This document shows, one piece after another, positions 4,361 through 31,188 of a DNA stretch of 55,265 nt (the stretch's first letter is position 1; each line of letters opens with the position of its first letter). Below the pieces are notes generated by a model. It searched no databases. It was not told where the DNA came from and worked only from the letters and a program-made list of their open reading frames with translations. Position numbers and translations under genes: made by a program. The DNA is from Promethearchaeota archaeon Loki_b31 (GTDB lineage Archaea > Asgardarchaeota > Lokiarchaeia > Sigyniarchaeales > SOKP01), in NCBI GenBank assembly GCA_005222975.1, contig NJBI01000017.1, positions 1 through 55,265 of the forward strand. The letters run 5' to 3'.

Positions 4361-4466
4361 GCTCTTTAAGAAACGTTGAATTGATAAAGTTTTCATTGCA
4401 AAAGTCTTGTTCTTGCTCTTTGCTGGAAATAAAAATCTAAAAACTCGAACACCTCATCATTTTTTG

Positions 4467-4500
4467 TTTAAATAAAACTGTATTAATTAGGTAGTAAAAG
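4467..4500 (+). promoter_or_regulatory. Conserved cassette leader TTTAAATA-N10-AATTAGGTAGTAAAAG (TATA box plus conserved 16-mer)
   Basis: Same motif with identical spacing upstream of all three cassette copies. Confidence 0.7.
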
Positions 4501-4517
4501 ATTTAAAATAACAAATT

Positions 4518-5129
4518 ATGACGGACTATATTGAAGATCCCTATATTGAATCAGAATATGATTATATTTTTAATGATTGGTATGAAATTGAGGGCGTAAG
4601 AAAAATAAAGGAACTTTCACGCCAACTCCGAACTTTTTTCAATTATAAGGCTGAAGTAATAAGATATCTATTTCGACCCAGTCCGAATCTTGCCGAAAAT
4701 GATACAAACACTAAATTTTTCAGTCGAAAGCAAGAAATTGAATCATTAACTCGTGAATTCATAATCTTTTTAAAAAAGTTTAAGGAAAATGGACAAACAA
4801 TTGAGCAAGGGATTCAATCTCTCTTTTTTGACAATAATAAAACACCATTGAATATACTCTCAGAGATCACTGAGAAATTGTCTATGTTGCTTCACTATTT
4901 TTCAGAGGAAAGCATTTACGATCATCCTAAATTTCTCAAATTTAATGTGATATTAGCACAAAATATATGTTTGGTGAAAAAATGCCTGAATGCACAATTT
5001 AGTGAATTTTTTGAGGAACTTGAAATAAATTACAATAATTTAGAAGGAGAACTTGAACATTTCTTTGAAATAATGTTAAATGAGCAGAAAAAATCGAAAA
5101 AACAACTTGAGGAGAGATTAGCTTCATGA
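4518..5129 (+). CDS. Cassette ORF-A, conserved unknown alpha-helical protein
   Basis: End-to-end homolog of 28712..29326 and 43216..43827 (WYEIEG.RKIKELSRQLRTFFNYK, HP.FLKF, CLVKKCL); stop overlaps ORF-B start (ATGA). Confidence 0.9.
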   Translation: MTDYIEDPYIESEYDYIFNDWYEIEGVRKIKELSRQLRTFFNYKAEVIRYLFRPSPNLAENDTNTKFFSRKQEIESLTREFIIFLKKFKENGQTIEQGIQSLFFDNNKTPLNILSEITEKLSMLLHYFSEESIYDHPKFLKFNVILAQNICLVKKCLNAQFSEFFEELEINYNNLEGELEHFFEIMLNEQKKSKKQLEERLAS

Positions 5130-7546
5130 AGGCATACACCAATGTGTCGCGGAAAGTCGTGGGGGAGGATCGCATTGCTATCTGCCCGCAATTCGGTTGC
5201 GATTATATGAAGCGGGTAAAACCGCTTAAATTTGGATTTCTCGGGTTTGAGAAGTATCCTAAATGCAAGACGCATCACTTACCCTTGGTGTATGTGGATG
5301 AGAGAATTGGAGAATTCGTGGATGGAGCATTGGCGTGCTTGTTTGACAAGGCGGGGCTCCCTCCAAGTGATCTACTGGAATTGGTCGCTTCACACTACCA
5401 CGATGAATTGGATCCATTCGTTCACGGATGGGTATACTGCGTCACGACTGGAAGGGGAGCACCTATCGTGTCTCGCTACTTGGATTCGATTTCGAAAGCG
5501 TACATGAAGAACCTCAATAGAAAGCAAGTCAAGGCGATCATGAAAGATGGGAACAAAAAAGATGTAGACAAATACCAAGCTGTCAAGAAGGGATTGAAAA
5601 AAATCACCGCACAGTACACCCGCCTCCTCAAACACCTCCGAGCACATTCGGAGGTTCTTGTGGATATTAAAAATCTTAAGTCGCTCTCAAGGAAACTTCG
5701 AAATGACTTGAATGAGTGGCAAGAGGGAATCATTCGTGATTATTTAGGGAAAAAATCTCAAGATAAATCTAACAGAATGACGATCGAGGAAGTAAAATAC
5801 TATTATGACCAGATTCTTAATGTGGGCACCTGTCGAAGCTTACTTGGAATGAAGACCGAATTCAAGAAAGTAAAGATAACCGCGTTTGATCGGTTTTCGG
5901 CTTATGTGGAGTTTTTTTCTGAAGGTATTACTGAAAAATATACAAAATCTGATATTAAAGGACTTTATTTAGATATTAAAATAAATCCAATTAAAAAGGA
6001 GTCAATAAAAAAAATGAAAACGAAAGAAAAATTTGAAGGAAATAAAGATCTAAAAACAATTAAAGAATATTTAAGAAATCTTGATTGGAAGAGTTTATCT
6101 AATAATTGGGTTGTATTACTTAGAGAACACCACACTAAACCTTATGAGAAAATCCTACTTGATCCTCATAAAGATCCTTCCAATGAAAATCCTTTATGGA
6201 AACATGAGATTTGGTTGAAGCGAGTATATGCTGATGAAAAATATGATTTTTCTGATAGTCTTATTTCTCGAATTACTGGTATTTCTCGGATTACAGTCAG
6301 AAAATACCGTTTGAAATTTAATATTAGCTATTCCTACTACAACATGACTCAAAAACCAATTCTTAGTAAAGAATTGATTGAGAAAAGGGAGAAGATTCGT
6401 AATTTTAATTGGAAAATAAATACTAATTGGATGATACCTGTCGGGGGACACGGTGATTTTTTAATCCTTAACCCAAGCGAATATTGCAGTCCTGAAAACC
6501 CTTTATACAAGCATAAGGTTTGGTTAAAAAGAGTTTATGAAGATGAAGAGCTTGATTTGAATGGAGTTGAGATTGCTAAAATATGCGGTCTAAAAGATCA
6601 GAAACCTATTAGTTATTGGAGAAAAAGATTAGGGATACATAAAAAAAGAAAAGGTGTTTATATAAATACACAAGGGCAAAAGGTGGTTCTCACTCCAAAT
6701 ACCTATACACACCCTCAGCGTGGTAGAGTTCATAAACGTGCTGAACATAAACTAATCATGGAAAGATATTTAAATAAAAGTCTATCAAGACACCAATTAG
6801 AAACACATCCAGATTTGATTCAGGGATTGTTAGGAGAAGAGGTGTATTTTTATATAAAGAAGAATTGTCATGTCCACCATATCAATTATGTAGGTACAGA
6901 CAATAGAATCGAGAATCTTTGGCTATTTTCTACTAATCGCGCACATGGATTAGTGGTTAATGAGCTACATCAATGCCTTTCAATTTTGATTAAGTTACAT
7001 CAAATTTTTTTTAAGGAGGGTAAATATTTTCTAAATCAAGATTTTGATTGTCGTCGGTTAGAAAGGGATGATATTCGAGGAAACTTAAATTTTGATAGTA
7101 TAATAAGTCATTATCTCTCCCGATTTTATAATAAGAGTAGAAATTCTTTTAGTGTAGCGATGCCTGCATCCTATAAAAATCCCTTTATTTCTCTAAAAAA
7201 AGGAATGGATTATGCTTATATATATGAACATAGGTATATCATCGAACAATATTATAGGACGCTTTTAAGAAAAAATACAAAATTACCAGAGGAACATAAT
7301 GATTATAAAAAAGCTAAAGAATTCATAAATCCTCAAGGATTTTTAAAACCCGATGCTCTCGTGCACCATGTAAATTTCGATTCTCGAGATAATCGGATAT
7401 CGAATTTATATGTGTGTAATATTTCTGAACATCGGCTTTGTCATGGATCAATATACCAATCAGTCGAAAGATTACTTGATATGGGATTGATTTATTTCTG
7501 TAACGGGAAATATTTTTTGGATAACACTTTAACTATTAAAATGTGA
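5126..7546 (+). CDS. Cassette ORF-B1: conserved Zn-finger head + two HTH repeats + tandem HNH_3 homing-endonuclease-like domains
   Basis: CPQFGC..CKTH head; NPL.KH..WLKRVY twice; VHHINYVGTDNRIENL and VHHVNFDSRDNRISNL, each preceded by EH[KR].I[MI]E.Y. Confidence 0.85.
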   Translation: MKAYTNVSRKVVGEDRIAICPQFGCDYMKRVKPLKFGFLGFEKYPKCKTHHLPLVYVDERIGEFVDGALACLFDKAGLPPSDLLELVASHYHDELDPFVHGWVYCVTTGRGAPIVSRYLDSISKAYMKNLNRKQVKAIMKDGNKKDVDKYQAVKKGLKKITAQYTRLLKHLRAHSEVLVDIKNLKSLSRKLRNDLNEWQEGIIRDYLGKKSQDKSNRMTIEEVKYYYDQILNVGTCRSLLGMKTEFKKVKITAFDRFSAYVEFFSEGITEKYTKSDIKGLYLDIKINPIKKESIKKMKTKEKFEGNKDLKTIKEYLRNLDWKSLSNNWVVLLREHHTKPYEKILLDPHKDPSNENPLWKHEIWLKRVYADEKYDFSDSLISRITGISRITVRKYRLKFNISYSYYNMTQKPILSKELIEKREKIRNFNWKINTNWMIPVGGHGDFLILNPSEYCSPENPLYKHKVWLKRVYEDEELDLNGVEIAKICGLKDQKPISYWRKRLGIHKKRKGVYINTQGQKVVLTPNTYTHPQRGRVHKRAEHKLIMERYLNKSLSRHQLETHPDLIQGLLGEEVYFYIKKNCHVHHINYVGTDNRIENLWLFSTNRAHGLVVNELHQCLSILIKLHQIFFKEGKYFLNQDFDCRRLERDDIRGNLNFDSIISHYLSRFYNKSRNSFSVAMPASYKNPFISLKKGMDYAYIYEHRYIIEQYYRTLLRKNTKLPEEHNDYKKAKEFINPQGFLKPDALVHHVNFDSRDNRISNLYVCNISEHRLCHGSIYQSVERLLDMGLIYFCNGKYFLDNTLTIKM

Positions 7547-15818: not shown

Positions 15819-16017
15819 TTCTTCTAATTCACCTTATCGGTTAATATTTTTTATTAGTTTTTTAATATTCTTAATAAAGAGTTTAAACTCTCATTTTAAA
15901 TTGATTGTATTAGAAGTAGCCAATTAAACTTTTAAATATTGTATTTATAACTTATTAATTTTGGATAAGAATGACCATAACCTTAGGTTTTCATTATACA
16001 AAACATAGGAGGTTAAA

Positions 16018-16409
16018 TTAAACGACATGTAGTGCTTGGTTTAAAATATCTAAATTTTTAACAAATTCTTCCTTAAATAGATGATAATACGTAAATTTTT
16101 GTTTTTTATATCCTTGTATTAATCCGGCTACTACAAGCTTTCTTAAATGATGAGATATTGTCGATTGGGACTTATCTAGTATAGTTTCTAATTCGCATAC
16201 GCATCTATCTTGCTTCCTTAAGGCATTAATTATAATTAAACGCTCCTTAGATGATAATGCTAAAAAAATAATGTTAAATCATCTAGATCTTCATTTTTCA
16301 ATAATTCTCTTCCAAAATCTTGTAGATTCATGAAGTATTGATTCGATTCATTGCATTCCTTACAGGAACATAACATTTTCTTTACTTCTTGTACCCTTTT
16401 TTGTTTCAC
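16018..16409 (-). pseudogene. arsR: Second arsR copy, frameshifted in a homopolymer run (or a sequencing error)
   Basis: GTG MKQKRVQEVKKMLCSCKEC...LTLFF, 1-nt frameshift at the A7 run 16262-16268, then LALSSKERLIIINAL..RCVCELETILDKSQSTISHHLRKL, nearly identical to 24359..24751. Confidence 0.8.
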
Positions 16410-23753: not shown

Positions 23754-24358
23754 TGTTCTTCCCATCAACACTTGAATATTAGAAAATTCTGATGTCTATT
23801 CTTTGCTTTTTTTGATAATTTCAAAGTGTCAATCTTTAATCATTTCTGTTTTGTATCAAATTTTTCCATATTAGAGATTTTTTGAGTATTTTACTTTCAA
23901 CAGGAATATATTTTTTTTCGTAAGAATCTCTATATCGTGGATCTGGGTTATCATATCTGATATGAATTTTCATATCATTTTGATTATCAGCACCAAACTG
24001 TATCCTCAATGGATTGTCATTAAGGTCTAAAAAAAAAAACCCCTATTCCAAAATACGTTAGAAATGACTTTGTTAGTATATTAGCTGTATCTATTTGTGC
24101 TCTATCATAAGATCTATTTCTAAAACTGTAATAAGTGCCTATACATAAAGTTTTTAATTTCAAACCTTTGAAATGACTGGTAGCATATTTGAAGAGTATT
24201 TGATAAAATGCTCTCGCGATTATATTCCCTTGTCGTATCCCTTTAAGATATTTAAGTTCGATACCCATCGGACTTAATACCTGATAATTAGATTTGAAAA
24301 TTATTAAATCAATGCTCATAACCTTAGGCTTTCATTATATAAAACATAGGAGGCTAAA

Positions 24359-24751
24359 TTAATTAACATATAATGCTTGGTTTAAAACATCTAAATTTTT
24401 AGCAAGTTCTTCCTTAAATAGATGGTAATATGTAAATTTTTGTTTTTTATATCCTTGTATTAAACCTGCTACTACAAGCTTTCTTAAATGATGAGATATT
24501 GTCGATTGGGACTTATCTAATATAGTTTCTAATTCGCATACACATCTATCTTGTTCTTTTAAAGCGTTAATAATGATCAACCTTTCTTTTGACGCTAAAG
24601 CTAAAGTGAATTTCTCAATCGCTTCAAATGTTTTATTTTCTTCTAATTCCTTCCCCAATTTTAGCAAATTATTAAAGAAACCATTTGAGTTAGAGCATTC
24701 TTTACAAGCACATAGCATTATCTTAATTTCTGATTCGCGTTTTTCTTTCAT
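24359..24751 (-). CDS. arsR: ArsR/SmtB-family metalloregulator
   Basis: ALA...RL.I, RCVCEL metal site, SQSTISHHLRKL HTH; divergent from acr3. Confidence 0.9.
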   Translation of the reverse strand: MKEKRESEIKIMLCACKECSNSNGFFNNLLKLGKELEENKTFEAIEKFTLALASKERLIIINALKEQDRCVCELETILDKSQSTISHHLRKLVVAGLIQGYKKQKFTYYHLFKEELAKNLDVLNQALYVN

Positions 24752-24806
24752 AAACTAAACCCTTTTTATATTTTTTTACAAAATACTTTTATCTTATATA
24801 TAAAAG

Positions 24807-24881
24807 TAAATCGATAAATATAAATTTATAACATTTCAGCTTTTCTTTATGCTCAAATCGACAACCTTAAATTTGAAGTAC
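24807..24881 (+). promoter_or_regulatory. Putative ArsR operator/promoter, repeated at 29388-29462
   Basis: Two conserved blocks (29/32 nt and an identical 20-mer TCAAATCGACAACCTTAAAT) around a variable 14-nt spacer. Confidence 0.6.
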
Positions 24882-24929
24882 AACTTTTAGTAAATGATAA
24901 TTATTCAATCTTAAAAGAATGAAGTAGAA

Positions 24930-26013
24930 ATGAAATCAGAAGAACCAAAAGTAGAATCAAAAAAAATTAATTATTTTGAAAAACTTCTTCCGTTATGGGT
25001 CGCATTATGTATAATTGCAGGTATTATTCTTTCTCAGCTTATCCCTGAAATAAGCGAAGCTATTAATTCTTTACAAATAGGAGGAATTTCTATTCCCATT
25101 GGAATCTGTTTATTCCTGATGATGTATCCCGCTATGTTGAATCTTCAATTTTCTGAGTTGAAAAAATTAGGTAAAAACCCAAAACCAATTATATTAACGC
25201 TTATCTCTAATTGGGTAGTCGCTCCTTTCATAGGGTTAGCAATGGCAAACATTTTTTTACCTGGATATGAACAACTAATAGTTGCAATTATTCTTCTAAG
25301 TTCAAGCCCATGTACTGCTATGGTCCTAATTTGGGGTTGGATGGCAAGAGGGAATCAAGAACAAAACGTAATTAATACTAGTTTAAATACAATAACTATC
25401 ATATTCGGTTATGTCCCTTTAGTCGCATTATTAACCGGCATTAAAAACATTCCTATAGATATCTTTCTTTTGTTAATTTCTTTGGTGGTTTTCATAGGAA
25501 TACCACTATTATTGGGTATAGTTAGTAAAAAAATTATTATTTCAACCAAAGGAGATGCTTGGTTTAACGATGTCTATAGACCAATTGTAGGAAAAATTTC
25601 GATTGGTGCACTATTAACGACTTTAATTGTTCTTTTTTCACTTAATGGAACCGTCTTGATAAATAATCCCGATCTACTGCTGATAATCTCTATACCTCTT
25701 TTAGTGGGATTTGTAATTGTTGTTGGTTTTAATTTATTAATTACAAAACTCTTTAAGTTGAGATATGAGGAAGCAGTTATTACGGTTATAATAGGATCTT
25801 CAAGTCATTTTGAAATAGCTATTGCTACTGCAATTGCTATGTATGGAATTGGCTCTATTGCTGCATTAGGGACTACCATGGGACTATACGATTCTTAGTT
25901 TTCCTATGAAAGGGTCATTCTGGGAAGTTCCAGTAATGCTGTCAATAGTCTACTTCGGAAGATTTCTAAAGAAAAGAGGTTTTTGGGAGAATTCAGGAGA
26001 TAGGACAGATTAA
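24930..26013 (+). CDS. acr3: Acr3 arsenite efflux permease, join(24930..25887,25919..26013), 350 aa if the 31-nt insert is spliced out
   Basis: LMMYP, NWVVAP, SPCTAMV, SSHFEIAIA motifs; removing the insert gives AALGTTMGL-FWEVPVMLSIVY with the spacing of the Acr3 consensus ATVVGPLIEVPVML. Confidence 0.85.
25888..25918 (+). other. Candidate 31-nt bulge-helix-bulge (BHB) intron in acr3 mRNA
   Basis: Central helix GACU(25882-85)/GGUC(25913-16), bulges AUA(25886-88) and AUU(25917-19), closing pairs G25881-C25920 and C25889-G25912, internal hairpin UUC-U-UAG/CUA-U-GAA; cleavage after the 2nd nt of each bulge restores the frame. Confidence 0.7.
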
Positions 26014-26105
26014 AGAATCCAAATTTTAAATTTTTTTTTTTATAAAATTACAAGAATCTATTATTAATCAAGCTTAAATCGGTAAAAGAATAGAAAAAAG
26101 GATTA

Positions 26106-28715
26106 TTACAGAAATCTTATTATATCACCATAAGTTTGTCTTAGCTTGTCGATTTGTTTAAGATCTCTCCAATTACAATGGGGAATATTTCTAAGACGAT
26201 AATTATTTATTTTAAATAATTTCCTTACTTGTTGCTCAAACTCGGAAATTATGAATTTTAGATAGTTATCACGTCGTATTGTATGATCAACTATGATATA
26301 AATATCGATAAATCCATTGTTTTTTAGGTTTTGTTTAAAATTATCACTAGATTTTAAATGCTGATAATCATTGACGAGAGATCCATTTCGAGGAGTTCTA
26401 TGCTTGAATCTATCAACATATTCTTCTAAAGATGAATGTTCACGATCCCAATATTCCCCTGCGACACTTAGCACTCCTATCTTTATACTAATATAAGCAA
26501 AAGCGTCAAAATGCATTCGCTTATAACTCCTTAATGTTTTATAATCGCTAGGCACTAAATTATCAACCTTATCAAAAGGAAGAATTTCATATAATGATGT
26601 TGGTTTTTCACCAAAATTTTTATGAAATAATCTTGAAAGTAAATAGCGCATTATCCGTTCGTTTGTTATTTTTCCTCCCGAACATATTTCACAAGATTTT
26701 AGATCTAAATTAAACTCATCAGGTTTAGATTTAAATCTAAAACTTGGATGATATTTACAAGACCATAGATAAACTTCTCTGGATGGCTGTTTTAATTTCT
26801 CAATATAACTCAACGGGGTTTCCAGATTAAAATTATATTTATCACCTCGAGTGATAATTTGTTCACTCGTTAATCTATGACTATCGTGATAACATTCAGC
26901 ACACCAGTTATCATAATCTTTAATGCGCTCCATACTAATATAAAATTCCCCGTGTCTGTTACAAATAAATGGGAATAATATTTCAGAGACTTTTTGCTGT
27001 TTATCACGAGATTTTTTTAACTCCTGATTTATTCGAGCTATAAATTCAGTTTCAGTAAATTTAAATCTTGCATTCCTCAACTCCGCTTCTCTAACAAAAT
27101 CCTGATATGAATGGGACTTTTTAATTCTTGAACATAGAGGGCATACAGCGCGATATAAATGTTTGTAAACTACACTAAATTTTTCATGGTTGGAACACTT
27201 ACAAGAAAGTTCAAATGATAAGTTTTCTATAAGAGTCCCTGTTAGCACAGATTCTAAATAATCAAATACATTCGTCTCCATATTAAGTCCTAAAGAATTG
27301 ATTTTACTACAATAGGAATTCCATTTCTTCACTAAGCTAAAAACACGTTTTTCAGCACATATTAATTTGTAATCGAGTATTAAATTAAAAAAAACAATAT
27401 AATTACTTGAAAACTCTTGTTTTAGATTAAAAAACCAATTATCTAAAATATTTTCATCTATTAAAGAGTTAGGTCTTTTATATTTATTAGACTTTAAAGT
27501 AGCGAAAGCTAAAACTTCAGAACCATTAGATGTACCATAAAGCATCTCGGCAATTCTATTATCTGGCAGAACTCCTTGACATGATTTAATTTGTTTTACT
27601 AGATTCTCAAGAAAACCCTTTGATATGAATTTGGTATTCTTTGCATTTGAAAAATGAATCTCAATAAATTCTTTATAATGTTCTAGAGCTATCATATCGA
27701 TTTTTTTAATTTCTCTTGGTTGCCCTTCTCTTTGTTTCATGGAATTTACGAACTCATTTTTTAATTCATTATTGAAAGATTCCCTGTATTCTTCATTAAT
27801 TTTAAGTGTTTCAAAGTTTTCAGATTTTTCGTCCATGTCTTTCTGATAATTGTTATTCATTCTCAGTAAGTTAAAAACATCAGATTTAGTAAATTTTGAA
27901 GTTAAATCTTCCTTAAAGAATTCATGATATGCGGAAAACCTGTCGAAGGCAGATACCTTTGCTTTCTTATTTCCTTTAGTTTCAGGATTTAATCCGAGAA
28001 GACAGCGACACGTACCAATGTTTAGGATTTGATCATAACTATGCTTCATCTCTTTTAACCCCATTTCACGATTGTTTTCTGACATAATTAATAACTCGTT
28101 ACTCTTCAACATGTTCTTTTGCCATTCATTCAAATATTTTTGAAGATGTTTTGAAAGTGGTTTAAGATTTTCAGGTTTAGAAAGGATTTCGGAATGAGCT
28201 CTCAGATGCTTGAGAATTCTTGTATATTGGATAGTTATTTCATCCATTCCATCCTTAATTGCTTTATTCACGAGATTTGATTTAGAATTATCTCCTTTTT
28301 TTATTGCTTTAATTTGTTTCTTGGTTAATTGCTTGAGATAAGCATTAGAAATTGTATCCATATAACGTGAAACTATGGGTACTCCCCTTCCAACTGTTAT
28401 GCAATATACCCATCCTTCTACAAATGAGGTCATTTCATCAAGGAATCTTGATTTCACGCTTTCAATTAATTCACGGGGAGGTAGTCCAGCTTTATCAAAC
28501 AAGCATGATAATGCAGCATCCACGAAATCACCGATCCTTTGATCGACATAAACTAAAGGAATGTGATGTTTTTTGCATTTAGGATACTTCCCAAAACCAA
28601 AAAATCTCAATTTAAGAGGTTTAACTCTTGTCATAAACTCACACCCGAAGTTTGGGCAGATTGCTATGCGGTCTTCTCCCACGGTTTTTCGTGACACGTT
28701 GGTGTATGCTTTCAT
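26106..28715 (-). CDS. Cassette ORF-B2: conserved head + three Zn-ribbon repeats + C-terminal PD-(D/E)XK/Vsr-like endonuclease
   Basis: Head homologous to B1/B3; CSNH..CPLC, CNRH..CAEC, CKYH..CEIC; ERIMRYLL...HFDAF...AGEYWDREH...D..KQ. Confidence 0.8.
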   Translation of the reverse strand: MKAYTNVSRKTVGEDRIAICPNFGCEFMTRVKPLKLRFFGFGKYPKCKKHHIPLVYVDQRIGDFVDAALSCLFDKAGLPPRELIESVKSRFLDEMTSFVEGWVYCITVGRGVPIVSRYMDTISNAYLKQLTKKQIKAIKKGDNSKSNLVNKAIKDGMDEITIQYTRILKHLRAHSEILSKPENLKPLSKHLQKYLNEWQKNMLKSNELLIMSENNREMGLKEMKHSYDQILNIGTCRCLLGLNPETKGNKKAKVSAFDRFSAYHEFFKEDLTSKFTKSDVFNLLRMNNNYQKDMDEKSENFETLKINEEYRESFNNELKNEFVNSMKQREGQPREIKKIDMIALEHYKEFIEIHFSNAKNTKFISKGFLENLVKQIKSCQGVLPDNRIAEMLYGTSNGSEVLAFATLKSNKYKRPNSLIDENILDNWFFNLKQEFSSNYIVFFNLILDYKLICAEKRVFSLVKKWNSYCSKINSLGLNMETNVFDYLESVLTGTLIENLSFELSCKCSNHEKFSVVYKHLYRAVCPLCSRIKKSHSYQDFVREAELRNARFKFTETEFIARINQELKKSRDKQQKVSEILFPFICNRHGEFYISMERIKDYDNWCAECYHDSHRLTSEQIITRGDKYNFNLETPLSYIEKLKQPSREVYLWSCKYHPSFRFKSKPDEFNLDLKSCEICSGGKITNERIMRYLLSRLFHKNFGEKPTSLYEILPFDKVDNLVPSDYKTLRSYKRMHFDAFAYISIKIGVLSVAGEYWDREHSSLEEYVDRFKHRTPRNGSLVNDYQHLKSSDNFKQNLKNNGFIDIYIIVDHTIRRDNYLKFIISEFEQQVRKLFKINNYRLRNIPHCNWRDLKQIDKLRQTYGDIIRFL

Positions 28716-29326
28716 GTGGTTAATCGCTCCTCGAGTTGTTTTATTGATTTTTTAATCTTATCTCTTGGCGTTGGTTCTAATAGGTTATCCAGCTCTCCTT
28801 CTAAACCATGATAGTTTATTTCAAGTTCTTTATAAAATTCGCGGAATTTTGCATATAGGCATTTTTTCACTAAACAAATGTTTTTTGCTAGCACAACAAC
28901 GAATTTAAGGAATCTTGGATGATCATGAATATTCACCTCTGAAAAAATATGAATTAAAATGGACAGTTTCTCCGTTATGGCTGATAGTTTATCAATTTGT
29001 GTTTTGTTATTTTCATAATAAAGAGATTGAATCCCCTCCTCAAGTGAATGTCCTTGTTTCTTAATTTTTTTTAACAAGGTTATAAATTCATGAGATAATG
29101 ATTCAACCTTTTGTTTTCGGGTAAGAAATTTTGTGGTTGATTTATTATCAAGTGAAATCAAGTTAGAACGAAATCGATATCTTATAACTTCAGTCTTGTA
29201 GTTAAAAAAAGTTCGGAGCTGGCGTGAAAGTTCTTTAATTTTTCTTGCGCCCTCAATTTCATACCAATCATTAAAAATTTCATCATATTCTGTTCCAAAA
29301 TCAGAATCGTCAATATAATCTGTCAT
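28712..29326 (-). CDS. Cassette ORF-A, copy 2
   Basis: Homolog of 4518..5129; ATGA overlap with ORF-B2. Confidence 0.9.
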   Translation of the reverse strand: MTDYIDDSDFGTEYDEIFNDWYEIEGARKIKELSRQLRTFFNYKTEVIRYRFRSNLISLDNKSTTKFLTRKQKVESLSHEFITLLKKIKKQGHSLEEGIQSLYYENNKTQIDKLSAITEKLSILIHIFSEVNIHDHPRFLKFVVVLAKNICLVKKCLYAKFREFYKELEINYHGLEGELDNLLEPTPRDKIKKSIKQLEERLTT

Positions 29327-29336
29327 AATTTATTAT

Positions 29337-29370
29337 CTTTTACTACCCAATTATCACAGTTGTATTTAAA
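29337..29370 (-). promoter_or_regulatory. Conserved cassette leader TTTAAATA-N10-AATTGGGTAGTAAAAG
   Basis: Reverse complement matches the leaders of copies 1 and 3 with the same 10-nt spacing. Confidence 0.7.
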
Positions 29371-29387
29371 TAAAAAAGTGAGCGAAA

Positions 29388-29462
29388 TAAATCTATAAAT
29401 ATAAATCTATAATATTTCAAACTGTAAGTTGAGTCAAATCGACAACCTTAAATGTGAAATAC
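29388..29462 (+). promoter_or_regulatory. Second copy of the putative ArsR operator/promoter, upstream of the methyltransferase-hgcA fusion
   Basis: Gapless match to 24807-24881. Confidence 0.6.
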
Positions 29463-29514
29463 TATTTTTTATTTTGAGACTTCATAATATAAAAAATTAA
29501 TTTGAAAAATTTGA

Positions 29515-31188
29515 TTGAAATTGGCAGTAGTATATATGAAAAAATTGGAGGAAGAACCGGAGACTTACGATTCGAAGTTTACTTCACTTACAAAAGGAAT
29601 AAATGTTAAAGTTCATAGTTGGGTATTGGATCAAATTCAATCAGATCAATCAATTTTAGAAATAGGGTCTGGGACGGGTTCATTAGCTTCAAAAATGGTT
29701 TCAAAAGGAAATATTGTTGTTGCAATTGATAATAACATTCAAATGATTAATTATGCTAAGCAGAAATACTCAGATACTTTAGAAAAAGGTACGCTATTGT
29801 ATCGATTAGGTTCATTTACGGATTTACCCGTTGAAAAGAGATCGTTAGATTTAATTGTCAGCACATTTCTATTATCAGAACTTCGCCCGTTAGAGCAACA
29901 AATATTTCTTAGAAACGCTTGGAAAGCATTAAAACCAAATAGTCGCTTGATAATAGCAGCAGAGTTTGTTCCATCAGGGTTTTGGAAGGTGGGTTTTAAA
30001 ATAAAAAGGTGGTGGTTCAAAAAAAAACTGCATCGTCTTCGTTTAAAAAGTACCTTTTTAGTTAAATGGTTTTTCAATTACATTGAACTAATAGGTTTTA
30101 AGATCGGAAACCAAAAGAAGTGGAAGCACGGTTCAATTCAAGCAATTGAATTGTTAAAAATTAACGATAACGGAGAAGATGAACCCGATTATTATCGTCC
30201 TAAAACAAAGAAGTTTAAAGGACTTATTTCGCAATTAAGAATTTATCGATGTCTTTTTACCGGACAGATAGATAGAGTTCCAATAGAACCAGGAATATAT
30301 AAATCTGGTAATCCCAATAGCAATTCTCCTATTATCGTAACGGCTAATTACGAGTATACCTACATAAAATTAATGCGCGATTTACAAAGTATTGATGCGT
30401 GGGTTTTATGTTTGGATTCTAATGGAATTAATGTATGGTGCGCTGCTCGAGGAGATGATTTTGGCAATAAACAATTACTAGAAGCCCTTGAAGCAACAGA
30501 TATTCGAGTAGTTTCCGAGAAAAAGACTTTAATTCTTCCCCAACTTTCAGCAGGAGGGGTTGCTATACCTCAATTACCAGAAAAATTTCCTTTCAAAGTA
30601 AAATACGGTCCTATTTGGTCAAAAGATTTAAAGCAATTTTTATCCGAGCGACCAGTCCGAAAACCAGATTCTATGAAACTTGCCAAATTTACTTTGTCTC
30701 ATCGTGTTCGTGCTGGAATCACGCATACTACGTTTTTATTCCGAAAAATCTTTTTAATTCCGATAATTGCAATTTTACTTTCGTTTATCATCTTGAATAA
30801 TATCGCTATCATATGGTGGCTTGGAGAATTAGTAATATGGATCATTCTCTCAAATGTAATAATATCAATCTTCTTTCCACTCTCTAAATTTACTCGCAAA
30901 TTTATTGTTAAAGCTGTATTTTTTGGATGTTTTAGCATATTTTTTATAGGGGCAATTTCTTGGATATTTCATAGTTCATATCTGTATTTACTCCTGAACT
31001 TTACAATATATTTCTGGATAACATTCTTTTCCACGATGTCTTTTAGCGGATACACGATGTCAACCAGTCCGAAAGAAATTCAAGCAGAATATCCTGTTTT
31101 TAGAAAAATAAATCTTACTCTAATAATTTTAGTCGTAATTCAATTAGGAATAAATATAATATTTTTTATGTTAAATATAATAAATTAA
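29515..31188 (+). CDS. hgcA: Class I SAM methyltransferase fused to HgcA-like corrinoid protein with TM domain
   Basis: LEIGSGTG SAM motif; EPGIY..GNP...SPIIVTANY, DSNGINVWCAARG cap helix, LILPQL, YGP, C-terminal TMs with FSGYT..TS. Confidence 0.8.
   Translation: MKLAVVYMKKLEEEPETYDSKFTSLTKGINVKVHSWVLDQIQSDQSILEIGSGTGSLASKMVSKGNIVVAIDNNIQMINYAKQKYSDTLEKGTLLYRLGSFTDLPVEKRSLDLIVSTFLLSELRPLEQQIFLRNAWKALKPNSRLIIAAEFVPSGFWKVGFKIKRWWFKKKLHRLRLKSTFLVKWFFNYIELIGFKIGNQKKWKHGSIQAIELLKINDNGEDEPDYYRPKTKKFKGLISQLRIYRCLFTGQIDRVPIEPGIYKSGNPNSNSPIIVTANYEYTYIKLMRDLQSIDAWVLCLDSNGINVWCAARGDDFGNKQLLEALEATDIRVVSEKKTLILPQLSAGGVAIPQLPEKFPFKVKYGPIWSKDLKQFLSERPVRKPDSMKLAKFTLSHRVRAGITHTTFLFRKIFLIPIIAILLSFIILNNIAIIWWLGELVIWIILSNVIISIFFPLSKFTRKFIVKAVFFGCFSIFFIGAISWIFHSSYLYLLLNFTIYFWITFFSTMSFSGYTMSTSPKEIQAEYPVFRKINLTLIILVVIQLGINIIFFMLNIIN

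What the first reader, a model, noticed from the sequence alone, without database searches (positions are those of the whole stretch)
25881..25922. Candidate BHB intron in a protein-coding gene (acr3)
Seen: acr3 is cut short by a 31-nt insert carrying an in-frame TAG, and the missing last helix (FWEVPVML...) follows in another frame. The junctions fold as G[GACU](AU^A)C...G[GGUC](AU^U)C, a 4-bp helix flanked by two 3-nt bulges, with an internal hairpin. Cutting after the second nucleotide of each bulge, the canonical EndA position, removes exactly 25888-25918. This gives a 350-aa Acr3 with consensus spacing and the conserved EVP glutamate. Established: archaeal BHB introns are mostly in tRNA and rRNA, with cbf5 the classic mRNA case. 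Inference: an mRNA intron in an Asgard arsenic transporter. A competing hairpin (GAUUCUU/AAGGGUC) could make splicing conditional. The outer exon helix is weak (G-C, G.U, U.G).
Basis: partly seen in the sequence, partly recalled or inferred. Interest (0 to 1): 0.9.

Follow-up and report, generated by a model that had tools for sequence, protein, structure and literature searches.

The report
tRNA-type mini-intron in Asgard acr3
The arsenite-pump gene acr3 of this Loki-type Asgard archaeon is split by a 31-base insert shaped like an archaeal tRNA intron; comparison with relatives indicates the mRNA is cut and rejoined, and the insert travels between genomes with a neighbouring selfish gene.

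Summary
acr3 (24930..) stops at a TAG inside a 31-nt insert (25888-25918). Its last helix, FWEVPVML..., continues in the +1 frame to 26013, and removing the insert gives a 350-aa Acr3.

The same insert sits at the same codon in about 24 loci (17 distinct junction sequences) from Promethearchaeota (Loki-type) assemblies. About 89 close orthologues read GL|FWEVP without a break.

The RNA shape is a canonical bulge-helix-bulge with compensatory changes. The outer stem is 11 bp, not 3. Exon 2 of insert-bearing genes is under the same purifying selection as uninterrupted genes (pN/pS 0.18 against 0.21). The genome encodes two EndA paralogues and RtcB.

Best reading (0.75): a BHB pre-mRNA intron. 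No RNA data were available, so splicing is inferred.

The insert is patchy on the exon-1 tree, needing at least 8 changes. It is tightly linked to a downstream two-gene module (204-aa and 869-aa ORFs): 20 insert-bearing loci have it, against 0 of 54 insert-less loci. Paralogues of the module carry HNH domains. This suggests spread like phage collaborative homing.

In the papers I could search, BHB introns inside coding sequence are reported only for crenarchaeal cbf5. Earlier notes of this scan report the same pairing on other DNA, in at least 21 genomes.

The parts
24359..24751 (-). arsR-family repressor gene, divergent from acr3
   Evidence: Pfam HTH_5 (arsR family), E = 4e-17.
24930..25887 (+). 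acr3 exon 1: 319 codons plus the first base of the junction codon
   Evidence: Pfam SBF, E = 2.3e-37. It is 59-96% identical to full-length Acr3 genes of relatives.
25869..25881 (+). 5' strand of the outer exon-exon stem (h), within exon 1
   Evidence: RNAalifold and pair counts. Its third-codon positions pair only in insert-bearing alleles.
25882..25885 (+). Central 4-bp helix, exon strand (GACU)
   Evidence: Paired with 25913-25916 in 17 of 17 sequences; two compensatory pairs.
25886..25888 (+). 5' bulge AU^A; inferred cut between 25887 and 25888
   Evidence: Read from the sequence. The cut position is inferred from canonical BHB geometry and the exon junction.
25888..25918 (+). 31-nt BHB mini-intron, carrying the in-frame TAG 25896-25898
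   Evidence: Absent from the 89 insert-less loci examined and present at the same codon in about 24 loci. Unique in its own genome.
25889..25912 (+). Inner hairpin (h') of the intron
   Evidence: 86% of cells are paired. The U.U mismatch becomes A-U, U-A or G.U in variants. L085, L093 and L070 have a continuous 9-bp helix.
25913..25916 (+). Central 4-bp helix, intron strand (GGUC)
25917..25919 (+). 3' bulge AU^U; inferred cut between 25918 and 25919
   Evidence: Read from the sequence, plus geometry.
25919..26013 (+). acr3 exon 2: last transmembrane helix with the EVP glutamate, the tail, and the stop at 26011-26013
   Evidence: Open in all 24 insert-bearing loci. pN/pS is 0.18 in this frame and about 1 in the other two.
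25920..25931 (+). 3' strand of the outer exon-exon stem (h), within exon 2
26106..28715 (-). 869-aa ORF of the linked module: conserved 290-aa N-domain, three Cys/His finger-like repeats, and a C-terminal domain of unknown fold
   Evidence: A homologue lies downstream of acr3 in 20 insert-bearing loci and in 0 of 54 insert-less loci that have room for it. No Pfam or PDB match. Paralogues carry HNH.
28712..29326 (-). 204-aa ORF, first gene of the module; overlaps the 869-aa ORF by 4 nt
   Evidence: Paired with the large ORF in all 8 module copies of the genome.
29385..29470 (.). Copy of the arsR-acr3 intergenic (promoter-like) sequence at the far end of the inserted block, upstream of the next host gene
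   Evidence: The insert-less locus L073 has no second copy.

Best explanation
The 31 nt at 25888-25918 are a bulge-helix-bulge (hBHBh') intron in the acr3 pre-mRNA.

Structure (shown): exon 1 and exon 2 pair over an 11-bp outer stem. A 4-bp helix is formed by exon GACU and intron GGUC, and it is flanked by two 3-nt bulges. The rest of the intron forms a hairpin.

Processing (inferred): the tRNA-splicing endonuclease EndA cuts after the second nucleotide of each bulge. Two paralogues are present here, which suggests the broad-specificity alpha-beta type. RtcB then joins the exons. This restores GGA CUA U|UC UGG (G-L-F-W) and a 350-aa Acr3 arsenite exporter. The unspliced RNA would give a 322-aa protein that lacks the last helix and the essential EVP glutamate.

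DNA level (linkage and lateral spread shown, mechanism inferred): the intron, about 50 nt of exon 1, all of exon 2 and the adjacent two-gene module (204-aa and 869-aa ORFs) form a block that has moved between diverged acr3 genes of Loki-type Asgard archaea. The likely route is that the module's large protein breaks intron-less acr3 alleles near the insertion site, and repair then copies the block. This would be collaborative homing. The intron keeps the invaded gene working and may destroy the target site.
For: - Junction and spacing.
- Occurrence: the same insert sits at the same codon in about 24 loci with 17 distinct junctions.
- Structure: the central helix is paired in 17 of 17 sequences, with two compensatory changes and two wobble changes. 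The whole structure is 94% paired, 4 pairs have compensatory change, and its covariation exceeds all 500 shuffles.
- Independent prediction: RNAalifold recovers the central helix, the inner hairpin and the distal stem on its own.
- Outer stem: the three synonymous sites pair in 100/94/81% of 16 insert-bearing alleles, against 38/40/35% of 63 insert-less alleles.
- Exon 2 selection: pN/pS is 0.18 among insert-bearing alleles, 0.21 among insert-less ones and about 1 in the other frames.
- Exon 1 is intact in all insert-bearing loci, apart from a second mini-insert in some.
- Enzymes: EndA x2 and RtcB.
- Same genome: other protein genes carry canonical 30-32-nt BHB inserts, at C12:13924-13955 and C45:8619-8648.
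- Mobility: the insert needs at least 8 state changes on the exon-1 tree. It is 86% identical between alleles whose exon-1 body is 69% identical, and identical in L139 at 71% exon identity.
- Transferred block: G005 differs from G000 by about 10% up to 25835 and is then near-identical through the module.
- Module linkage: 20 insert-bearing loci against 0 of 54 insert-less loci.
- Paralogous modules carry HNH_3 above Pfam's cut-off, and one has a weak LAGLIDADG_3 match.
Against: - No transcript, circular intron or cleavage assay was available, so splicing is inferred.
- In the window's own allele the inner helix next to the 5' bulge is only 1 bp before a 2x1 internal loop. This is a relaxed form; G017-type and L085-type alleles are tighter.
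- The single-sequence minimum-free-energy fold is not the BHB and has z = 0.
- Each compensatory change rests on one sequence.
- Insert-bearing flanks may share ancestry through co-transfer, which inflates the contrast in outer-stem pairing.
- The 869-aa protein has no recognisable nuclease domain. Its AlphaFold model is poor (pLDDT 56). The Atlas lead to DUF2726 is weak.
- Four insert-bearing loci lack the module.
- The near-identity between G005 and G000 could partly be an artefact of metagenome assembly.
Confidence: 0.75

Rival explanations
1. Split gene with stop-start coupling. The insert is not removed. It supplies a stop (TAG 25896) for a 322-aa Acr3 core and a start (ATG 25906) for a 35-aa peptide that carries the last helix, and the two chains assemble in the membrane.
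For: An ORF at 25906..26013 begins with ATG seven bases after the TAG. This ATG is present in 14 of 17 distinct alleles. Purifying selection on exon 2 fits this reading as well as it fits splicing.
Against: Three alleles (L061, L079, L093) have no ATG, GTG or TTG in the exon-2 frame, yet they keep exon 2 intact. L085 and L126 have no in-frame stop inside the insert. This reading does not explain the compensatory changes between exon and insert, or the selection on synonymous sites of the outer stem. The ATG lies in the 3' strand of the inner hairpin, so structure alone can account for it.
Confidence: 0.08
2. Dead gene. The insert is a scar or hitch-hiking piece of the neighbouring mobile module, acr3 is a pseudogene, and the apparent structure is incidental.
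For: The insert always comes with signs of a mobile block, which is often decaying: the large ORF is truncated in L068, L126, L085 and L070. The single-sequence fold is unremarkable.
Against: There are no further frameshifts or stops in exon 1 or exon 2 across alleles whose exon 1 is only 67-96% identical to the window's protein. Exon 2 has pN/pS 0.18, the same as in intact genes. The insert is more conserved than the coding body. Covariation is present. The genome holds no second acr3-like match that could replace it (a single match in G000).
Confidence: 0.05
3. The insert is removed or skipped by something other than EndA, for example ribosomal bypassing as in phage T4 gene 60, or another RNA-processing activity.
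For: A stop codon lies shortly after the take-off region, and a hairpin lies in the gap, superficially like gene 60.
Against: There are no matching take-off and landing codons: CUA at 25884-25886 against UCA at 25915-25917, read from the sequence. The conserved features are exactly those of a BHB (4-bp helix, two 3-nt bulges, flanking helices), and they covary. Insert lengths of 31, 32 and 34 nt all keep the BHB register.
Confidence: 0.04

Closest known systems
BHB intron in the cbf5 (pseudouridine synthase) pre-mRNA of Desulfurococcales and Sulfolobales (Watanabe 2002; Yokobori 2009, PMC2738675)
   Same: A short ORF-less intron inside a protein-coding sequence. It has bulge-helix-bulge junctions and is removed by the tRNA-splicing endonuclease and ligase. 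It is present in some lineages and absent in close relatives.
   Different: The gene is different (a membrane transporter, not an RNA-modification enzyme), and so is the phylum (Loki-type Asgard, not Crenarchaeota). Here the intron is linked to a neighbouring mobile gene module and has clearly spread laterally. Splicing has not been shown experimentally.
BHB intron in the 5' UTR of HVO_1309 mRNA of Haloferax volcanii (PMC7714728)
   Same: An mRNA substrate of EndA; that one was confirmed by circRNA-seq and in vitro cleavage.
   Different: That intron lies in an untranslated leader and does not interrupt a reading frame. This one must be removed for the protein to be made.
Archaeal tRNA introns with hBHBh' motifs, abundant in Asgard tRNA genes (bioRxiv 10.64898/2026.10.13.758758)
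   Same: The same motif geometry, size range and presumed enzymes. Most of the Asgard genomes in that study have two EndA paralogues, as this genome does.
   Different: The host RNA is an mRNA. The outer helix is built from codons (Gly-Thr...Val-Pro) rather than from a tRNA stem.
Collaborative or trans homing in phages: free-standing F-CphI beside the ORF-less psbA group I intron of cyanophage S-PM2 (PMC6083498), and T4 mobE with the I-TevIII intron (PMC2790892)
   Same: An intron without its own endonuclease gene sits next to a free-standing selfish gene, and the two are inherited and transferred together with flanking exon sequence.
   Different: The intron here is not a self-splicing ribozyme but a host-enzyme-dependent BHB intron. 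The host is an archaeon. Nuclease activity and the cut site of the 869-aa protein are unproven, and its nuclease domain is unidentified.

Membership tests
Archaeal BHB (hBHBh') intron | [quoted passage not shown] | tested here: met
   GACU/GGUC with bulges AUA and AUU. The helix is paired in 17 of 17 distinct sequences.
Archaeal BHB (hBHBh') intron | Flanking helices h (exon-exon) and h' (within the intron) | tested here: met
   An 11-bp outer stem, 25869-25881 with 25920-25931, 98% paired. An inner hairpin, 86% paired on an unfitted alignment. In the window's own allele h' is relaxed next to the bulge.
Archaeal BHB (hBHBh') intron | Cuts at the symmetric bulge positions give a functional mature RNA | tested here: met
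   Removing 25888-25918 restores GL|FWEVP with the spacing of the 89 uninterrupted loci examined. The cut position within the bulge comes from established knowledge of tRNA BHB geometry.
Archaeal BHB (hBHBh') intron | Base pairs kept by compensatory change | tested here: met
   Four pairs show changes on both sides, and covariation exceeds all 500 shuffles. Each event rests on one to three sequences.
Archaeal BHB (hBHBh') intron | Splicing endonuclease and RtcB ligase encoded in the genome | tested here: met
   Two PF01974 matches, on C13 and C79. One PF01139 match, on C84.
Archaeal BHB (hBHBh') intron | Cleavage by EndA, exon ligation and release of the intron, observed in RNA | not testable with these tools
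   No transcript data. No spliced-type protein was found among the listed database cluster members.
Collaborative homing unit (free-standing endonuclease plus ORF-less intron) | Selfish gene adjacent to the intron-bearing gene and co-inherited with the intron | tested here: met
   20 insert-bearing loci have the 869-aa homologue, against 0 of 54 insert-less loci. A shared block starts at 25836 in G005. The insert is patchy on the exon-1 tree.
Collaborative homing unit (free-standing endonuclease plus ORF-less intron) | The adjacent protein is a site-specific DNA endonuclease | tested here: inconclusive
   No nuclease domain was found in the 869-aa protein. Paralogues that share its N-domain carry HNH_3 (35.3 bits against a cut-off of 24.8), a weak HNH match, or a weak LAGLIDADG_3 match.
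Collaborative homing unit (free-standing endonuclease plus ORF-less intron) | The enzyme cuts intron-less alleles at or near the intron insertion site, and intron-bearing alleles are immune | not testable with these tools
   Needs an in vitro cleavage assay.
ACR3 arsenite efflux permease | SBF/ACR3 fold with the conserved Cys (PCTAM) and Glu (EVP) motifs, in an ars context | tested here: met
   Pfam SBF, E = 2.3e-37. PCTAMV is in exon 1 and FWEVP in exon 2. arsR lies divergently upstream. Relatives are named ACR3 by their sources. Transport was not tested.
IS or MITE excision footprint | Terminal inverted repeats or a target duplication, and related copies elsewhere in the genome | tested here: not met
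   No other copy in G000. Only a 2-nt AU repeat, which is part of both bulges.
Programmed translational bypass (T4 gene 60 type) | Matching take-off and landing codons flanking the gap | tested here: not met
   CUA against UCA, read from the sequence.

The most novel reading that the evidence does not exclude
Loki-type Asgard archaea carry a mobile system in which a free-standing nuclease-type gene module and an ORF-less, EndA-dependent mini-intron invade protein-coding genes together. The intron both protects the allele and keeps the gene functional. On this reading, host-spliced introns are being seeded into mRNAs by a DNA-level homing process in the closest prokaryotic relatives of eukaryotes. 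acr3 would be one target, and some alleles carry two such introns.
Probability: 0.5. Interest if true: 0.85.

Novelty: new variant of a known kind. Interest (0 to 1): 0.8.

Why it matters
In the papers I could search, introns of the tRNA type inside archaeal coding sequences are documented for a single gene, cbf5 in Crenarchaeota (PMC2738675, PMC7714728).

This case is a well-supported example in a transporter gene of an Asgard archaeon, with a structure under selection. At least two more protein genes of the same genome are interrupted in the same way. Together these suggest that mRNA splicing by EndA and RtcB is a regular part of gene expression in this lineage.

Gene callers cannot read such genes and truncate them; here acr3 is recorded as a 322-aa protein.

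The tight linkage to a mobile gene module offers a concrete, testable route by which spliceable introns enter protein genes. That bears on how intron-rich genes could arise in the lineage nearest to eukaryotes.

Tried and rejected
1. Genome-wide scan of G000 for inserts of 15-60 nt whose removal merges two ORFs and which meet BHB geometry. There was no enrichment over a parallel-pairing control. The background of adjacent operon genes swamps the signal, so I dropped it as a statistic. Restricted to module neighbourhoods, it did recover two clear cases.

2. blastn-short of the insert against the genome. Only chance 12-17-mers turned up, so the insert is not a repeated element.

3. Minimum-free-energy fold of the single sequence. 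It did not give the BHB and had z = 0, so it was uninformative.

4. Co-conversion test on exon flanks. Insert-bearing pairs are only 4-7 points more alike near the junction than insert-less pairs. This is weak, because the region is conserved anyway.

5. Nuclease domain in the 869-aa protein: Pfam, PHROGs, a PDB profile search, AlphaFold2 (pLDDT 56) and the Atlas. There was no secure assignment. I did not run a fold search on the poor model.

6. Search for a spliced-type protein in public protein sets. The only 350-aa cluster member is an ordinary insert-less allele.

7. Rfam search: no match.

8. Search for a second copy of exon 2 in the window, i.e. a displaced original gene end: none.

10. 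L054, a 34-nt insert in a more distant acr3-like gene: not resolved.

Full report
**Observation**

The window's acr3 gene (Pfam SBF, E = 2.3e-37) lies divergently from an arsR-family gene. It reads from 24930 and stops at TAG 25896-25898. The conserved last helix, FWEVPVML..., follows in the +1 frame and runs to the stop at 26011-26013.

Twenty orthologous loci of the same genus and order were aligned at this point. Seventeen read ...TTMGL|FWEVPVML... without interruption. Three (G000, G005 and G017) carry 31 extra bases between GGACTAT and TCTGG. An AT repeat makes deletion starts at 25886, 25887 and 25888 equivalent. Removing 25888-25918 gives 319 + 1 + 30 = 350 codons. Within the 42 genomes held for the genus, only those three carry the insert.

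**More copies**

I scanned the metagenome and genome collections with a pattern anchored on the flanking codons (sorted). This found the same insert at the same codon in about 20 further contigs. Nearly all bear Promethearchaeota (Loki-type Asgard) titles. Lengths are 31 nt in most, 32 nt in L093 and 34 nt in L070. The 65-nt pattern matches were uninterrupted genes caught through an upstream ATGGG.

In all, 24 loci carry the insert and give 17 distinct junction sequences (alignment A1). Of the loci examined, 89 are insert-less.

**Structure**

- The central 4-bp helix (25882-25885 with 25913-25916) is paired in 17 of 17 sequences.
  - C-G becomes U-A in L132.
  - A-U becomes G-C in L093.
  - U.G becomes U-A in L085 and L070.
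- The two bulges are AU(A/G) and AUU.
- The U.U mismatch of the inner hairpin becomes A-U, U-A or G.U in variants. L085, L093 and L070 have a continuous 9-bp helix that starts right after the bulge.
- RNAalifold, given no constraint, recovers the central helix, the hairpin and a distal exon-exon helix GGRACU/AGUUCC.
- For the whole structure, 94% of cells pair and 4 pairs show compensatory change. The covariation score exceeds all 500 shuffles, and sliding the partners by one column drops pairing to 53-61%.
- Three positions of the outer stem are synonymous third-codon sites. They pair in 100, 94 and 81% of 16 insert-bearing alleles, but in only 38, 40 and 35% of 63 insert-less alleles, which is about the random expectation. 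Shared ancestry of the flanks may inflate this contrast. The U-A double change in L070 is an independent event.
- Random positions of the window meet the basic geometry at a rate of 0.05%.
- The single-sequence minimum-free-energy fold is uninformative.
- Between G000 and G017 only 2 differences fall in 25872-25931, which lies within the structured element. Exon 2 beyond 25932 differs heavily.

**Is the gene alive?**

Exon 2 is open to a stop in all 24 insert-bearing loci and encodes the conserved helix. Among the 16 distinct insert-bearing exon-2 sequences, pN/pS is 0.18 in the Acr3 frame. It is 0.84 and 1.38 in the other two frames, and 0.21 for 61 insert-less alleles. Exon 1 has no stops or frameshifts in any insert-bearing locus, apart from a second mini-insert described below. 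The genome has only this one acr3-like match. A decaying pseudogene is therefore very unlikely.

**Rival: a stop-start split gene**

The insert holds an ATG at 25906, in the exon-2 frame.

- Three of the 17 alleles (L061, L079 and L093) have no ATG, GTG or TTG there.
- L085 and L126 have no in-frame stop inside the insert.
- This reading does not explain the covariation between exon and insert.

Ribosomal bypassing lacks matched take-off and landing codons.

**Enzymes and context**

G000 encodes two EndA catalytic-domain paralogues and RtcB. A recent preprint reports two paralogues, consistent with the alpha-beta architecture, in most of the Asgard genomes it examined, together with heavily interrupted tRNA genes (bioRxiv 10.64898/2026.10.13.758758). 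It does not treat mRNAs.

In G000 I re-found two other protein genes with canonical BHB inserts:

- a Mg-chelatase/VWA gene split at GSMNPEE|GELRPQ by 32 nt (C12:13924-13955);
- an AAA_5 gene split by 30 nt (C45:8619-8648).

**Mobility**

On a tree of exon 1, with the last 90 nt left out, the insert state needs at least 8 changes, of which 7 are forced by well-supported branches. The insert is on average 86% identical between alleles whose exon-1 body is 69% identical, and it is identical in L139 at 71% exon identity. Insert-bearing alleles also share a distinctive exon-2 tail, GFWE(T/S)SE.R.E.

G005 differs from G000 at about 10% of sites up to 25835 and is then near-identical for more than 1.5 kb, through the insert, exon 2 and the next gene. 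This fits a recently transferred block, although an assembly chimera cannot be excluded.

Compared with the insert-less locus L073, the window has exactly two additions here. One is the 31-nt insert. The other is 3.5 kb (25986-29491) that replaces 37 nt after acr3.

**The linked module**

The 3.5 kb encodes a 204-aa ORF and an 869-aa ORF on the minus strand.

- A homologue of the 869-aa protein lies downstream of acr3 in 20 insert-bearing loci, and in none of the 54 insert-less loci that have at least 1.5 kb of room.
- It is truncated in L068, L126, L085 and L070 and absent from L139, L141, L120 and L093. This is as expected if a selfish gene decays after it becomes fixed.
- The module family has 8 copies in G000, three of them in this window.
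- The copies share the small ORF and a 290-aa N-domain, but their C-terminal parts differ.
  - One has two HNH_3 domains above Pfam's cut-off.
  - One has a weak HNH match.
  - One has a weak LAGLIDADG_3 match.
- The acr3-linked protein has three Cys/His finger-like repeats and a conserved C-terminal domain for which I found no family, no solved relative and no confident model.
- Three of the eight modules (C12, C45 and this one) lie within 200-600 nt of a BHB mini-intron in the neighbouring gene.

**Interpretation**

Shown:
- a conserved, covarying hBHBh' element whose canonical cut sites restore the reading frame;
- a gene under selection on both sides of it;
- the enzymes for its removal;
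- lateral spread together with a gene module.

Inferred:
- cleavage by EndA and ligation by RtcB;
- nuclease activity of the module's large protein on intron-less acr3.

The closest published analogues are the cbf5 pre-mRNA intron (PMC2738675), the HVO_1309 leader intron (PMC7714728) and, for the DNA-level behaviour, collaborative or trans homing in phages (PMC6083498, PMC2790892). Earlier notes of this scan describe the same pairing in this genome and in at least 21 others. I used them as leads and re-tested only the C12 case.

**Verdict**

In relation to the literature I could search, this is a new variant of a known kind of intron. It lacks RNA-level proof.

Noticed in passing
L139:2872-2945, L100:3324-3400, L052 and L110 (minus strand); the equivalent window site is 25343/25344: Some insert-bearing acr3 alleles carry a second insert of 33 nt, in frame and with stop codons, at VWG|WMAKG next to the conserved PCTAMV motif. 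It has BHB geometry (GGGG-AU^A ... CCCU-AU^G), and removing it restores the consensus. It is absent from the window.
   Followed up: partly
window 4518-7546 (+), 26106-29326 (-), 43216-47204 (+); also G000 C12, C38, C45, C72, C87: A family of two-gene modules: a ~203-aa ORF overlapping a 718-1126-aa ORF. The copies share a 290-aa N-domain (MKAYTNVSRK.VGEDR.AICP.FGC...) and differ in their C-terminal parts (double HNH_3, weak HNH, weak LAGLIDADG, or unknown). There are 8 copies in the genome. The copy at 4460-7546 is an insertion relative to L073.
   Followed up: partly
G000:C12:13924-13955 (L146) and G000:C45:8619-8648 (L147): Two AAA+ genes (a Mg-chelatase/VWA type and an AAA_5 type) are split by canonical 32- and 30-nt BHB inserts at their NPxx...LxDRF motifs. 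Each lies just downstream of a module of the family above.
   Followed up: partly
window 29385-29470 against 24804-24888: The far end of the inserted block carries a close copy of the arsR-acr3 intergenic sequence, directly upstream of the next host gene (557 aa, 29515..31188). In the insert-less locus L073 that gene follows acr3 after 37 nt. The block may bring a replacement promoter or operator for the gene it cuts off from acr3.
   Followed up: partly
window 15970-16264 and 24311-24605: A direct repeat, 88% identical over 295 nt and covering the arsR region, brackets about 8.3 kb (five ORFs of 261-547 aa) that L073 lacks. This is another insertion or duplication next to the ars locus.
   Followed up: no
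L054:271-349: A more distant acr3-like gene has about 34 extra bases at the same GL|(F/C)WEVP site, with no obvious match to this intron family and no clear BHB register. It could be an independent insert.
   Followed up: no
L139 (record title Candidatus Odinarchaeota archaeon H3M.118): This contig carries an insert identical to the window's, although its exon 1 is only 71% identical in DNA. Either the block crossed between distant lineages, or the bin is mislabelled.
   Followed up: no
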